DNA of 64,000 nucleotides from Escherichia phage UPWr_E2: the sequence record PP418986.1. One strand, 5' to 3'. Within the stretch, counting starts at the first letter, position 1; every line of letters starts with the position of its first letter. Made by a program: the position numbers and the translations under genes. The notes beneath the pieces were generated by a model. It saw only the letters and a list, made by a program, of their open reading frames with translations. It was not told the DNA's origin and made no database searches. This document shows, one piece after another, positions 29,975 through 34,833 of the stretch.

Positions 29975-30631
29975 TTATTTAGCCCTTCCTAATATTCTGG
30001 CCGCCTGAGCACATATTGATTCAAGGCGGTCATTACTTATATGATCATTTCTATACCAGTACATGGTTATCGTTCCAGCATAGATATTATCCAAATTAAA
30101 ATATGGACAACTGTACATGTAGTTTATTTCGGGAGTAGGCTTTTTAGTTGGTAAAAAAGCAAATTTTGAGTCGGAATAATAATGACGTCCATTTAAATGA
30201 ACTGTATATTCATCCATAGTTTTATCAACAGGATATCCTCCAAGTGATTTTTCACTTATTGTTGAAGGTAATTTTCCTTCATATGCTATAATATCAACAA
30301 AATAGTTTAAGTTTTTAGGGCGGAAAGAATACACCGCACTAAAGTCTGCCTCAGATGATATATGAACTATCTGGAGTTGTTCCAGGGCGACAGATTCAAA
30401 GCGTGCATTTCTTTCCTTTTCAATAATTTCACTGTATGTTTCATACTTTGATTGCTTATAGTACTCAAAGAAACTATCTCCCCTATACCAAACAATCGCC
30501 ATCATAAATAAAAGAATTACGACAGCTACCCGGGAAGCAAGAACTTTCCCGGTAGCGTTATCTTTGAACAAGCGATCTAGAACACCAAATAGAATATCAG
30601 AGGGCGAAAATGATATTCTAGGTGCTGCCAT
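29975..30631 (-). CDS. t: holin T
   Basis: 218 aa with single TM segment after a short N-terminus; matches T4 holin in size and position. Confidence 0.9.
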   Translation of the reverse strand: MAAPRISFSPSDILFGVLDRLFKDNATGKVLASRVAVVILLFMMAIVWYRGDSFFEYYKQSKYETYSEIIEKERNARFESVALEQLQIVHISSEADFSAVYSFRPKNLNYFVDIIAYEGKLPSTISEKSLGGYPVDKTMDEYTVHLNGRHYYSDSKFAFLPTKKPTPEINYMYSCPYFNLDNIYAGTITMYWYRNDHISNDRLESICAQAARILGRAK

Positions 30632-30662: not shown

Positions 30663-31460
30663 TTATACTCTTGGACCATATATTACTCCAACATTTTGCC
30701 AAGTTGGAGCAGATCCTATGACAGCATAACCTGCTGCTCCTCCTGCACCAACCTTTAGAACTTTACCACCATCAGACCAGGCATTTTGTCCATTTCCTCC
30801 GGCATCGCCGCCCTGGCCAGAGTGAGCATTTCCGTATTGGTAACCACCTCCTGGGGCGACGTATGAAGCTGCGCCACCTGAGTAACCACCGCCACCACCT
30901 GGGCCAAATGGTCTTCCGCCGCCACCACCAATATCTTGCCAGTCTGCCCCTGAGTGAACACGGTAAGCAATGCCGCCACCACCGCCTCCGCCACCACAGA
31001 TTACTCCACCATTGTTAATTCTTAATCGTCCACCAATGTCGTTTTGAATACAATGCCCGCCTTGTTGTCCATTACCATCTCCACCGGAATGAGTCCATCC
31101 ACCTTGTCCACCTCTACCCCACATATGAGCGCCAATAATATTTAACTGAACATATTCATTTGGTGTATCTCCGTACATGAAGAATAAAGGAACATCTTTA
31201 GAATATGATACTAAATCACCTGTAATATTAAACACTATAGGTGCATTACCTGCCTCAAAACATCTATCTCGGAACCATTGACCATTGAAGTTATGGTCTG
31301 CTCCAAGCGTGTGAATAATTTCTCGTGAGCGACCTGCAAATTGACTCATCCAGCAAGGAACACCCAATCTTAATTGACCAGCCGCTTGACTCATCCAGCG
31401 CTGTCCTGTTTCATTTGCGGCTGAACTTCCAATCCAACCAGGAACACCAACTACTGCCAT
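30663..31460 (-). CDS. 38: tail-fibre adhesin gp38 (T2-type, glycine-rich motifs)
   Basis: 265 aa with repeated poly-Gly islands (GGGGGGGG, GGGGG) separating variable segments; immediately downstream of gene 37. Confidence 0.85.
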
Positions 31461-31472
31461 AATTTATACTCC

Positions 31473-31492
31473 AAAGGGGGCATTTCCCCCTT
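31473..31492 (-). promoter_or_regulatory. intercistronic stem-loop between 37 and 38
   Basis: GGGGGAAATGCCCCC hairpin between gene 37 stop and gene 38 SD. Confidence 0.4.
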
Positions 31493-31496
31493 GTTG

Positions 31497-32741
31497 TTAG
31501 AATTTAAAATATTTACTAATTTTGCGAGCAATTTTAGTAAAGAAAGGAGTTTTCAATTCTTTAATTTCTTCACTCATTTCCTGAATAGCCTTAATTAAAA
31601 GAGCATTCACAGCAGAGTTAGAAATTGTCAGAACATCAGATCCATCAACTTCAACTTTAGATACAGCTTCCGGTAATTCCTTTTCAAGGTCCTGAGCAAT
31701 AATACCAACTTCACGTTTAATAACACTACGGTCTTTAATAGACTTAACTTTATCGTAAATATAAACTTTCAGTCGACATACTTTTTCAAGTGCTCCGTTT
31801 TCTAGCTCTTTTTTATTAATCTTAAGACGACCATCGGAACGAATATACACATCGTTAAAGTTACCATTACCAGGAGAATAGAAAGTACCGTCGTAATGAA
31901 ATTCAAATACCGCGTTAGGGTGTCCAGCCGCTGGCGATGCCTCCGCAGATCCAACACGAATAGTTGCTTGCCCCCAATTGTTAGGGACACGACGAATACC
32001 AAGATCGACGGCAGTTACAAACCCTTGATTGGTGATTACACTTCTTCCTTTGAGAATCGGATAATAACAATCCTGTGAAACATAACCATGATCGACGAAT
32101 ATTGGTGCTTCTACTCGCCATTGGTTGCCCCAATCACCCGGTTGTCTAGCAATCCATCCAGAACCGTTAATGTGTACACGATCGCGGTTAACGTTAACCA
32201 TTGCGATATTTTGTGGATTTAGCGAAATCTCACCATTGTTTGTGATATGTACTGCCGCCTGAGTAGCATAGCTATAAAATGCTAGCGAATTATCAGCACC
32301 ACCCTTACCAATATACCAGTTACCACTCCCGTCTACGTCACCACGAATATGCAAAGCATTACCAGCAGTTGTTGATAATACAATAGAATCACCCGGACGT
32401 TTAATAATCAATCTACCTTCGGATTCAATTTCACCAAAAAATTTAGTCTTAATTGCACCAGTCGCTAAAGTACGTTCAGTGGAAAAATGAACGCCTTTGC
32501 TGTCTTCTAACTGAATAATGTTATCGCGCGCATTATTACTATCACCCCAATGATTAAACCGGAAATAATCACGTGATTGCTTACCACCCGCTTCAAACGT
32601 CAGCGTACCTTTACTTAAATTAACATCACCGCTAAAGGTAGCAGCAAGAGAATCACGTTCTAATTTTAAAACGTTAGCACCACTAGTACCACCTAAAGTA
32701 ACATCACCAGTTCTCAATTCATAACGGAAAGGTCTAATCAC
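31497..32741 (-). CDS. 37: long tail fibre distal subunit gp37, C-terminal reading frame (disrupted gene)
   Basis: 414-codon frame; first ~116 residues re-encode the duplicated segment [12 protein letters not shown]...IIKRPGD. Confidence 0.6.
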
Positions 32742-33084
32742 CCGGACGTTTAATAATCAATCTACCTTCGGATTCAATTTCACCAAAAAATTTAGTCTTA
32801 ATTGCACCAGTCGCTAAAGTACGTTCAGTGGAAAAATGAACGCCTTTGCTGTCTTCTAACTGAATAATGTTATCGCGCGCATTATTACTATCACCCCAAT
32901 GATTAAACCGGAAATAATCACGTGATTGCTTACCACCCGCTTCAAACGTCAGCGTACCTTTACTTAAATTAACATCACCGCTAAAGGTAGCAGCAAGAGA
33001 ATCACGTTCTAATTTTAAAACGTTAGCACCACTAGTACCACCTAAAGTAACATCACCAGTTCTCAATTCATAACGGAAAGGTCT
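32387..33084. repeat. perfect 349-bp direct tandem duplication (2 copies) inside gene 37
   Basis: Copies 32387-32735 and 32736-33084 identical at every position on manual comparison. Confidence 0.9.
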
Positions 33085-34833
33085 ATTTGTATTATAGTTT
33101 CCATTTTGATCATCTTCGTTGGTGGAAAGAATATAAAGATTCTCTCCATAAGTACGGAAAATTGTACCAAAATTTCCGGCATACATACGGAATGCATTAG
33201 ATGAGCGAAATTTAACTTCTGTTTTAAAAGTGGTAGTGTTATTAAGGTTAACAGTAGAGTTAAAATTGGTAGGAGCACCGAAGTTAACAGCACCATTAAA
33301 ATCTTGTTGAGCTGTCCATGTGTGGCAACCATCTTCAAGAACAACACGGCGGACTGTGCAAGTTCTATTTCCAGAATTACCGAACACACTAACGACAAAA
33401 TAACGGTAGTTTGTCTGGGATACAGTACCACGCCAAACCTGAACAGTACGTCCTGTGCTAGTGTGCTCGCTAGGACCAACAGAAAACATAATTAAGTTTC
33501 CGTCAATCGTACCCCAATCCATATTAGCTGGCATGTTCTTTATTTTGTTCAAAGGAACGCTAAACATACTACCAGGAACAAAATCAAATGTTTGCCAGTC
33601 TAACTCTGCTAAGTTAGATTTAATACCACCCATACCCAAAGTAATTGGAAGAGAGTAAGATGTATATACTTCGTTCCATGTACCCCAAACACCGCCGGTA
33701 TATGCACGCTCAAAAATACGATCGCGGGTAGTTGCACCTGTTCCGGCAGTAGTAAATTTTTGGAAAATAGCACCACCAGAAGCACGCTGTTTAACTTCCA
33801 GCAAACCAACAATAACGGTTGGTAAACCTTCACCTGTAGGACAGTTAATAACGGCATCAGTGCCTAAAATGTTATATAACCCAGGAGCTTTAAAATCATT
33901 CAGGTCTCCGTCATAGAAAGTCGCCGGTGTGACATTACCGACTTGTTGCCACGGTCCCCATTTAGGCGCAGATGCATCCCATGCAGCAGCAAGACAGCGA
34001 GTATAAACAACACCAAATCTGGTCGTATATCTCTGTGTGCGAGAATAGTTTCCACCTTCATATACTTCTAAAAGTCCTTGAGCTGACAATCCTTCTTCTG
34101 GGAAATTTCTGTCAAAGGTAGCAATGGAATTTGAACCATTTCGCCACAAACCAAGGTGTTCAGCGCCTCCTAGATCATTAAGATCAATCGTTGTTGACAG
34201 TGGACGAGTACCAGATTGAATATTTCGCCACGCACTCCACGGACCGTTTACTCCGTTCCATGTAGCAGTCAAGGAACGAATATAAACATTTCCGTATCTA
34301 GTTGTATATCTCTGAGTACCAGCAAATTGACCGGCCACAAATACTTCTAGAACACCTACAGCATTTTCTTCTGGAAATTTATTTGCTGGTTGAGCGTTGG
34401 TTGAAGTTGTTTTCGACCAAACTCCAAGATATTCTTCAACAGGCCCATACTCATCTAAATTAGCATCAACAGGTAATTCGCCGTTATTTTTTATAAACGT
34501 TGTGCTATTGACATTTATGTCAGATGGAGTTAGCGTGATATCTTTTGACCCATCAAAGGATATACCATTAATTTTTCGTGCTGTTTTTAATTTCGTTGCA
34601 GTTGCAGCGTTACCTGTTAAATTTCCAATTATGTTTCCATTAACAGTTAAAGAACCATCAATTGTTCCTCCATATTTTAAACCTAATTCTATAACACTAC
34701 CTGAGTCATCTTTTGTGAAAATTGTTTTATCTTTTAAGTTTATAGCCAATTCACCTTCGGCTAATACTGAAGCAGCAGGACGTTGACCTGCAGTTTTGCT
34801 TCTTTTAAATTGTATTTGTTTTAAAGTAGCCAT
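32734..34833 (-). CDS. 37: long tail fibre distal subunit gp37, N-terminal reading frame (terminated by frameshifting duplication)
   Basis: 699-codon ORF starting next to gene 36 stop; ends ...IIKRPGD* at the duplication junction. Confidence 0.65.

What the first reader, a model, noticed from the sequence alone, without database searches (positions are those of the whole stretch)
30663..31460. T2-type gp38 adhesin with glycine-rich islands and variable segments
The protein downstream of gene 37 is not a T4-type chaperone-only gp38. It carries several poly-glycine runs ([31 protein letters not shown]) that in T2-like phages frame the hypervariable receptor-binding loops. It is therefore the likely host-range determinant, and its function depends on the C-terminus of gp37, which the tandem duplication disrupts.
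Basis: partly seen in the sequence, partly recalled or inferred. Interest (0 to 1): 0.45.

Follow-up and report, generated by a model that had tools for sequence, protein, structure and literature searches.

The report
Known T-even phage gp38 tail-fibre adhesin
This gene encodes an ordinary, already-sequenced gp38 receptor-binding protein that caps the long tail fibre of a T4-like coliphage and most likely recognises the outer-membrane protein OmpA; it is a correct annotation, not a discovery.

Summary
It matches Pfam GP38 (E 1e-66) and Gp38_N (E 1.5e-19). It also matches the crystal structures of PP01 gp38 (9V85, E 8e-73) and S16 gp38 (6F45_D, E 3e-51). It shows no similarity to the T4 gp38 chaperone (E about 0.8). 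The DNA is 100% identical to seven GenBank Tequatrovirus records, and the protein is identical to QZI80336.1.

The protein is a mosaic. Residues 1-47, the attachment domain, are 100% identical to phage M1 and 96% to T6. Residues 109-265, the specificity domain, are 156/157 identical to phage AV119 and 155/157 to FL08. Both are experimentally OmpA-dependent "type 1" adhesins. The one shared difference is D173 for N173, in hypervariable segment 2. Identity to T2 gp38 itself is only 44%.

A perfect 349-bp tandem duplication puts a TAG into gene 37 after codon 699 of 995, upstream of the gp38 docking tip. This out-of-frame duplication is absent from every related record and is probably an assembly artefact.

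Novelty: already known. Interest is low.

The parts
30663..31460 (-). Gene 38: T2/T6-type gp38 tail-fibre adhesin, 265 aa plus a TAA stop at 30663-30665
   Evidence: ORF. Pfam GP38 and Gp38_N. PDB 9V85 and 6F45_D. DNA 100% identical to MZ234027 and six other records. Protein identical to QZI80336.1.
31320..31460 (-). Attachment domain, aa 1-47, which docks on the gp37 trimer tip. Contains the three conserved Trp residues W9, W22 and W37. It is the T6/M1 subtype.
   Evidence: Gp38_N matches aa 1-42. 47/47 identical to M1, 45/47 to T6, and only 25-27/47 to AV119 and FL08. The Trp residues are invariant or nearly invariant. Their role is taken from the S16 structure (PMC6851490). This is the low-confidence part of the model, with pLDDT 35-61 for aa 1-40.
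31137..31319 (-). Conserved central part, aa 48-108, forming the start of the beta-helix body
   Evidence: 94-98% identical to AV119, FL08, SH7, M1, Ac3 and FL18, and 89% to T6. Predicted strands have pLDDT above 90 from about aa 51.
30666..31136 (-). Specificity domain, aa 109-265: five glycine-rich motifs alternating with four hypervariable segments. Approximate glycine-rich motifs: 115-120, 156-163, 178-188, 215-223, 241-249. Approximate hypervariable segments: HVS1 121-131, HVS2 164-177, HVS3 189-214, HVS4 224-240.
   Evidence: Entropy profile of 50 homologues. 156/157 identical to AV119 and 155/157 to FL08. The model superposes on 9V85_C with TM 0.87.
30942..30944 (-). Codon 173 (Asp) in HVS2. 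It is the only specificity-domain difference from the OmpA-binding AV119 adhesin (Asn), and one of two from FL08. The position is polymorphic: D, N or H.
   Evidence: It sits next to the R165-A170 stretch (FL08 numbering; R167-A172 here) that Lutz 2025 predicted to contact OmpA loops.
31497..34833 (-). Gene 37, the distal half-fibre and partner of gp38, interrupted as written. A 699-codon N-terminal ORF (32734-34833) is followed by a 414-codon out-of-frame ORF (31497-32741). The second ORF carries the gp38 docking tip and the S74 intramolecular chaperone.
   Evidence: Removing one repeat copy restores a 995-aa ORF collinear with QZI80337.1.
32387..33084 (.). Perfect tandem duplication of 349 bp (copies 32387-32735 and 32736-33084). 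It comprises codons 584-699 of gene 37 plus one base and creates a TAG at the junction.
   Evidence: It is absent from PYps55T (99.8% identical) and from every other related record listed, all of which align without it. The junction was not found in IMG/VR.
29975..30631 (-). Holin gene t, immediately downstream. It completes the 37-38-t gene order of T-even phages.
   Evidence: Pfam Phage_holin_T, E 1.9e-117. Same gene order in T4, T2 and CHD2BS1.

Best explanation
The gene encodes a monomeric gp38 adhesin of the T2/T6/S16 type, which is the receptor-binding cap of the long tail fibre of a Tequatrovirus.

Mechanism, taken from the solved S16 and PP01 structures and from genetics on close relatives:
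- The N-terminal three-helix attachment domain places three conserved tryptophans (W9, W22, W37) into pockets at the base of the gp37 trimer. That surface is exposed after the C-terminal S74 chaperone domain of gp37 is cleaved off.
- The rest of the protein forms a beta-helix.
- The glycine-rich motifs extend from the beta-helix as polyglycine-II helices packed into a sandwich.
- The hypervariable segments form the distal loops that touch the host outer-membrane protein.

The specificity domain differs by one residue (D173 for N173) from the adhesin of phage AV119 and by two from that of FL08. Both phages need OmpA to infect E. coli K-12 and tolerate all eight OmpA loop variants tested. The predicted primary receptor is therefore OmpA, of the broad 'type 1' kind.

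Shown here: family membership, domain mosaic, fold prediction, and identity to known alleles. Inferred: OmpA specificity, docking on gp37, and function in this particular genome.
For: Family and fold:
- Pfam GP38 E 1.2e-66 and Gp38_N E 1.5e-19.
- PDB 9V85 (PP01 gp38 receptor-binding domain) E 7.9e-73, and 6F45_D (S16 gp38) E 2.7e-51.
- The AlphaFold2 model has mean pLDDT 85.3. Its only significant PDB matches are 9V85 (E 9e-28, TM 0.87) and 6F45_D (E 4e-24, TM 0.77).
- Glycine-rich and hypervariable segments alternate, and the three Trp residues are conserved.
- The gene order is 37-38-t.

Receptor:
- Residues 109-265 are 156/157 identical to AV119 and 155/157 to FL08.
- Those two phages lose plaque formation on an ompA deletion mutant and infect strains carrying all eight OmpA variants (PMC12032242).
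- The residues that paper predicted to contact OmpA are all present here: R165-A170, R181, D217 and R262 in FL08 numbering correspond to R167-A172, R183, D219 and R264.
- Swapping gp38 from HVS2 onwards is enough to switch the porin receptor in related phages (bioRxiv 10.64898/2026.04.02.716166).

Viability of the allele:
- Seven plaque-forming phages carry the identical allele.
- In CHD2BS1, the record whose gene 37 was examined, it is paired with an almost identical gp37 C-terminal third that has a single T-to-I difference.
Against: - No adsorption data exist for this exact allele.
- The one substitution, N173D, lies in HVS2 directly beside the predicted OmpA-contact stretch. In this family a single HVS residue can switch receptor, as with RB68 Q206L, which changes OmpF to OmpW.
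- Close alleles occur in phages isolated on Yersinia pseudotuberculosis and Shigella, whose receptors have not been determined.
- The OmpA contact residues come from AlphaFold-multimer and molecular-dynamics predictions, not from a solved complex.
- As the window is written, gene 37 is truncated before the docking tip, so in this exact sequence the adhesin would have nothing to bind.
Confidence: 0.85

Rival explanations
1. It is the same kind of adhesin, but the D173 allele recognises a different or additional receptor rather than E. coli OmpA alone. Candidates are Tsx, OmpC, OmpF, FadL or a Yersinia outer-membrane protein.
For: Position 173 lies in HVS2 next to the predicted contact residues and is polymorphic, D, N or H. 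Single HVS changes can switch receptor (RB68 Q206L). A few HVS2/HVS3 changes let the T6-like PST adhesin work on Yersinia. The D173 allele, with small insertions, is also found in Yersinia phage PYps55T.
Against: There is only one change in 157 residues relative to an OmpA-dependent adhesin. All the other predicted contact residues are retained. In published trees, closely related gp38 sequences share their receptor. Yersinia and E. coli OmpA are themselves close, so infection of Yersinia does not require leaving OmpA.
Confidence: 0.1
2. In this genome the long-tail-fibre locus is truly defective. The 349-bp duplication is real, gp37 ends at residue 699, and gp38 is made but cannot be mounted. 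The sequence would then represent a non-infective variant or a minority genotype.
For: As written, a TAG follows codon 699. The docking tip and S74 domain are encoded only in another reading frame, behind a GTG codon with no evident ribosome-binding site. Tandem duplications inside gene 37 do occur in public T-even records, including an in-frame 153-bp one in UPWr_E4.
Against: - Gene 37 is essential for infectivity (established T4 genetics), so a plaque-purified phage could not carry this change as its consensus.
- The two copies are 349/349 identical.
- The duplication is absent from every related record listed, including the 99.8%-identical PYps55T; 716 records matched.
- The junction is absent from IMG/VR.
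- Record G3G7 has a 127-bp perfect out-of-frame duplication in the same gene. It was assembled with SPAdes, whose largest default k-mer is 127 (my own knowledge). This shows that such repeats can enter records as terminal-overlap artefacts.
Confidence: 0.2
3. It is a T4-type gp38: a chaperone for gp37 folding that is not part of the virion.
For: Only the gene's position downstream of gene 37 supports this.
Against: There is no sequence similarity to T4 gp38 (E about 0.8). The matches to adhesin families and structures are strong. The gp37 encoded here carries its own S74 intramolecular chaperone domain.
Confidence: 0.01

Closest known systems
gp38 of Escherichia phages vB_EcoM-CHD2BS1, G3F6, G3F8, G3G7, PM105, PM107 and PM108 (MZ234027 and related records; protein QZI80336.1; Loose et al. 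2021, PMC8614997)
   Same: The gene is 100% identical at the nucleotide level in all seven records. The protein is identical to that of CHD2BS1, the one translated and compared. In CHD2BS1 and G3G7 it lies in the same 37-38-t or 37-38 context.
   Different: Nothing differs in gene 38. The neighbouring gene 37 is about 98% identical and, in CHD2BS1, is uninterrupted. The records label the protein 'tail protein and peptidase' or 'hypothetical protein', which is an uninformative annotation.
Type 1 OmpA-binding gp38 of phages AV119 and FL08 (Lutz et al. 2025, PMC12032242)
   Same: The specificity domain, aa 109-265, is 156/157 and 155/157 identical. All predicted OmpA-contact residues are retained.
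   Different: The attachment domain belongs to another subtype, with 53-57% identity over aa 1-47 and a 2-aa length difference. D173 replaces N173 in HVS2.
gp38 of phages M1 (OmpA) and T6 (Tsx)
   Same: The attachment domain is 100% (M1) and 96% (T6) identical. The central part is 98% and 89% identical.
   Different: The specificity domain is only 52% identical, with different hypervariable segments.
PP01 gp38 receptor-binding domain (PDB 9V85; binds OmpC of E. coli O157; PMC12892980)
   Same: Same fold: TM 0.87, rmsd 2.9 A, 63% identity over 221 columns. The region from the end of the attachment domain through the central part (aa 38 to about 150) is almost identical.
   Different: The hypervariable loops differ, and the receptor is OmpC.
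S16 gp37-gp38 tip complex (PDB 6F45; Dunne et al. 2018)
   Same: Same three-domain architecture: attachment domain, beta-helix and polyglycine-II sandwich. The G8 helix and the GGGGGRPFG motif are the same.
   Different: 45% identity, a Salmonella host and different loops.
T2 gp38 (FadL/OmpF)
   Same: Same family and same arrangement of glycine-rich motifs.
   Different: Only 44% identity. The attachment and central domains belong to a different subtype: 64% and 39% identity.
T4 gp38
   Same: Same gene name and same position downstream of gene 37.
   Different: An unrelated protein (E about 0.8). It is an assembly chaperone and is not present in the virion.

Membership tests
T2/T6/S16-type gp38 adhesin (Pfam PF05268 GP38 plus PF21721 Gp38_N) | Sequence matches the family profiles above the curated cut-offs | tested here: met
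   GP38 scores 225.1 bits against a cut-off of 25 and covers profile positions 1-218 of 218. Gp38_N scores 70.1 bits against a cut-off of 25.
T2/T6/S16-type gp38 adhesin | N-terminal attachment domain with three conserved tryptophans that dock on the gp37 trimer | tested here: met
   W9, W22 and W37 are present. W22 is invariant, and W9 and W37 are at least 90% conserved among 50 homologues. Their role is taken from 6F45. Docking itself was not tested.
T2/T6/S16-type gp38 adhesin | C-terminal domain in which conserved glycine-rich motifs alternate with four hypervariable segments | tested here: met
   In the entropy profile the low-entropy glycine columns lie at 115-120, 156-163, 178-188, 215-223 and 241-249. 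The variable stretches lie between them.
T2/T6/S16-type gp38 adhesin | Fold consisting of a beta-helix plus a polyglycine-II sandwich | tested here: met
   The AlphaFold2 model has pLDDT 85.3. Its only significant PDB matches are 9V85 (TM 0.87) and 6F45_D (TM 0.77). This is a prediction, not a solved structure.
T2/T6/S16-type gp38 adhesin | Encoded directly downstream of a gene 37 whose product ends in a cleavable S74 intramolecular chaperone domain | tested here: met
   Gene 38 starts 36 nt after the gene 37 stop. Peptidase_S74 matches ORF aa 302-360. Caveat: gene 37 is interrupted upstream by the 349-bp duplication.
T2/T6/S16-type gp38 adhesin | Protein present at the fibre tip in virions and required for adsorption | not testable with these tools
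   Needs virion proteomics, immuno-electron microscopy or adsorption assays.
Type 1 OmpA-binding gp38 subgroup (AV119/FL08; Lutz 2025) | Specificity-domain sequence clusters with AV119 and FL08 and keeps their characteristic residues | tested here: met
   156/157 and 155/157 identical. R167-A172, R183, D219 and R264 are retained. N173D is the one change shared against both.
Type 1 OmpA-binding gp38 subgroup | Infection depends on OmpA and tolerates OmpA loop variants | not testable with these tools
   Needs plating on an ompA deletion mutant and on OmpA-variant strains.
T4-type gp38 tail-fibre assembly chaperone | Sequence similarity to T4 gp38 (NP_049864) | tested here: not met
   BLASTP best E is 0.80 over 20 residues.

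The most novel reading that the evidence does not exclude
The D173 allele could have a receptor range different from that of its N173 relatives. The change sits beside the predicted OmpA-contact stretch of HVS2, at a position that varies between D, N and H among phages isolated on UPEC, Shigella and Yersinia pseudotuberculosis. It might, for example, extend recognition across OmpA variants of these hosts or add a second porin. A single natural residue would then tune host range across genera.
Probability: 0.1. Interest if true: 0.35.

Novelty: already known. Interest (0 to 1): 0.1.

Why it matters
The main value is a correct annotation. In the public records this allele is labelled 'tail protein and peptidase' or 'hypothetical protein', although it is the long-tail-fibre adhesin. 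Near-identity to characterised adhesins predicts that it binds OmpA. That prediction is useful for designing phage cocktails or anticipating resistance through ompA loss. It adds nothing new to gp38 biology. The only point affecting how the sequence is used is that the gene 37 duplication should be verified before this genome is treated as encoding a functional fibre.

Tried and rejected
- T4-type chaperone reading: rejected by a direct BLASTP against T4 gp38.
- Closest to T2 itself: rejected. Identity is 44%, and the attachment and central subtype differs.
- A receptor assignment for the closest named phages (JK08, AV119, fFiEco06, HP3) was sought in the supplements of the 2026 receptor-screen preprint. 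Nothing was found.
- The Yersinia phage paper (PMC8762354) gives host ranges and gp38 alignments, but I found no receptor assignment for these phages.
- The 349-bp duplication junction was searched for in IMG/VR, with no match. This cannot tell whether the duplication is real.
- An apparent 11-kb length difference from PYps55T proved to be an artefact of how BLAST pieces were joined. Window 35000-64000 is a single collinear block at 99.976% identity.
- K3 and Ox2 gp38 were not retrieved by name, so they were not aligned. M1, T6, Ac3, FL18, T2 and an S16-like protein stood in for them.
- The promoter and terminator scan around the gene gave nothing above shuffled expectation for promoters.

Full report
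**Observation.** An ORF of 265 codons occupies exactly 30663-31460 on the minus strand. Glycine makes up 26% of the protein and 36% of residues 109-265. The gene starts 36 nt after the stop of the gene 37 reading frame. It is followed by the T-holin gene t at 29975-30631 (Pfam Phage_holin_T, E 1.9e-117). This is the 37-38-t order seen in T4, T2 and phage CHD2BS1.

**What it is.** The protein matches Pfam GP38 (E 1.2e-66, full profile length) and Gp38_N (E 1.5e-19). Among solved structures it matches the PP01 gp38 receptor-binding domain (9V85, E 7.9e-73) and S16 gp38 in the gp37-gp38 tip complex (6F45_D, E 2.7e-51). The identity of 9V85 was confirmed in PMC12892980. BLASTP against T4 gp38 (NP_049864, taken from NC_000866) finds nothing, with a best E of 0.80. 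T2 gp38 aligns end to end at 44% identity (E 5e-41). An AlphaFold2 model built on 50 homologues has mean pLDDT 85.3. Its only significant PDB matches are 9V85 (E 9e-28, TM 0.87, rmsd 2.9 A) and 6F45_D (E 4e-24, TM 0.77). The first 40 residues are modelled at low confidence. That is expected for an attachment domain modelled without its gp37 partner.

**It is already in the databases.** The 798 bases are 100% identical to seven GenBank Tequatrovirus records: vB_EcoM-CHD2BS1, G3F6, G3F8, G3G7, PM105, PM107 and PM108. They are at least 99% identical to 33 records in all. The protein is identical to CHD2BS1 QZI80336.1. These phages come from a breeding study on uropathogenic E. coli (PMC8614997). 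The wider window is a mosaic relative of Yersinia phage PYps55T. Region 35000-64000 is 99.976% identical and collinear with it. Gene 37 is 99.8% identical. Region 6000-30700 is only about 97.5% identical to any record.

**Anatomy.** In an alignment of 50 homologues, the conserved glycine columns fall at about aa 115-120, 156-163, 178-188, 215-223 and 241-249. The high-entropy stretches lie between them at 124-131, 164-177, 189-195, 206-214 and 224-240. This is the scheme of five glycine-rich motifs and four hypervariable segments described by Trojet et al. 2011 (PMC3157838). In the S16 crystal structure, the glycine-rich motifs form polyglycine-II helices packed into a three-layer sandwich, and the hypervariable segments form the distal loops. 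Three conserved tryptophans of the attachment domain occupy hydrophobic pockets on the gp37 trimer (PMC6851490). Here those tryptophans are W9, W22 and W37, and they are invariant or nearly invariant.

**Domain mosaic and receptor prediction.** A homologue search returned named relatives.
- Residues 1-47 are 47/47 identical to phage M1 and 45/47 to T6. They are only 25-27/47 identical to AV119 and FL08.
- Residues 48-108 are 89-98% identical to AV119, FL08, SH7, M1, T6, Ac3 and FL18. They are only 39-45% identical to T2 and the S16-like CGG4-1 protein.
- Residues 109-265 are 156/157 identical to AV119 and 155/157 to FL08. They are only about 52% identical to M1 and T6, and 42% to T2.

AV119 and FL08 are the 'type 1' OmpA-dependent phages of Lutz et al. 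2025. They lose plaque formation on an MG1655 ompA deletion and infect strains carrying all eight OmpA variants tested (PMC12032242). The residues that paper predicted to contact OmpA are R165-A170, R181, D217 and R262 in FL08 numbering. They correspond here to R167-A172, R183, D219 and R264, and all are present. The only difference shared against both references is D173 for N173, in HVS2 next to that stretch. The same position is N in JK08 and PYPS2T, H in a metagenomic relative, and D in PYps55T. In related phages, exchanging gp38 from HVS2 onwards switches the porin receptor. One HVS3 residue also switches OmpF to OmpW in RB51 and RB68 (bioRxiv 10.64898/2026.04.02.716166). I therefore predict OmpA as the receptor with good but not complete confidence. 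That step is inference.

**The clause about gene 37.** Gene 37 (31497-34833, minus strand) contains a perfect tandem duplication of 349 bp. The copies lie at 32387-32735 and 32736-33084, with one base of junction homology. The repeat unit is codons 584-699 plus one base. The frame therefore shifts, and a TAG follows codon 699 immediately...GGT GAT TAG. Removing one copy restores a 995-aa ORF collinear with CHD2BS1 gp37. The second ORF of 414 codons carries the S74 intramolecular chaperone domain at ORF aa 302-360, which is about gp37 residues 883-941. Its C-terminal region also aligns with the S16 gp37 chain of 6F45.

I doubt the duplication is biological, for four reasons:
- Gene 37 is essential for infectivity.
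- The two copies are 349/349 identical.
- None of the related records listed carries the duplication, including the 99.8%-identical PYps55T.
- The junction is not in IMG/VR.

There is a direct precedent. Record G3G7 has a perfect 127-bp out-of-frame duplication that splits gene 37 into two annotated CDS. That genome was assembled with SPAdes, whose largest default k-mer is 127 (my own knowledge). This is the signature of an untrimmed terminal overlap. UPWr_E4 has an in-frame 153-bp duplication in the same gene, so real duplications are also possible. Only the reads or a PCR can settle the question.

**Comparison and verdict.** This is a member of the T2/T6/S16-type gp38 adhesin family, and every defining feature I could test was met. 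Within the family it combines a T6/M1-type attachment domain with the AV119/FL08 type 1 OmpA specificity domain. Such modular exchange is what Trojet 2011 described for this protein. The exact allele is already public. The finding is a correct annotation of an ordinary gene. Novelty is 'already known', and interest is low.

Noticed in passing
window 32387-33084 (gene 37, minus strand): A perfect 349-bp tandem duplication places a TAG after codon 699 of gene 37. It is absent from all related public records. It is probably an assembly artefact, but reads or a PCR are needed to settle it.
   Followed up: partly
L004 1277-1530 (MZ234040 vB_EcoM-G3G7) and L005 1843-2148 (PP418987 UPWr_E4): Two public records carry perfect tandem duplications inside gene 37. 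In G3G7 the repeat is 127 bp and out of frame, splitting the gene into two CDS; 127 matches the SPAdes k-mer size. In UPWr_E4 it is 153 bp and in frame. Gene 37 may be a hotspot for contig-end artefacts or for genuine duplications.
   Followed up: partly
window 31461-31496 (spacer between genes 37 and 38, minus strand): A GC-rich hairpin (GGGGGAAATGCCCCC) sits between the gene 37 stop and the GGAG ribosome-binding site of gene 38. The terminator scan flagged it only on the opposite strand. Its role was not examined.
   Followed up: no
window 6000-30700 compared with 35000-64000: The window is mosaic. The right-hand 29 kb is 99.98% identical to Yersinia phage PYps55T. The left-hand 25 kb is only about 97.5% identical to any record. 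Gene 38 is identical to the E. coli CHD2BS1/G3 phages rather than to PYps55T, whose gp38 has 4 extra residues. This implies recombination breakpoints near the 37-38 region.
   Followed up: partly
GenBank annotations of the identical allele (for example QZI80336.1): The adhesin is annotated as 'tail protein and peptidase' or 'hypothetical protein' in most of the identical records. These labels are uninformative or wrong.
   Followed up: no
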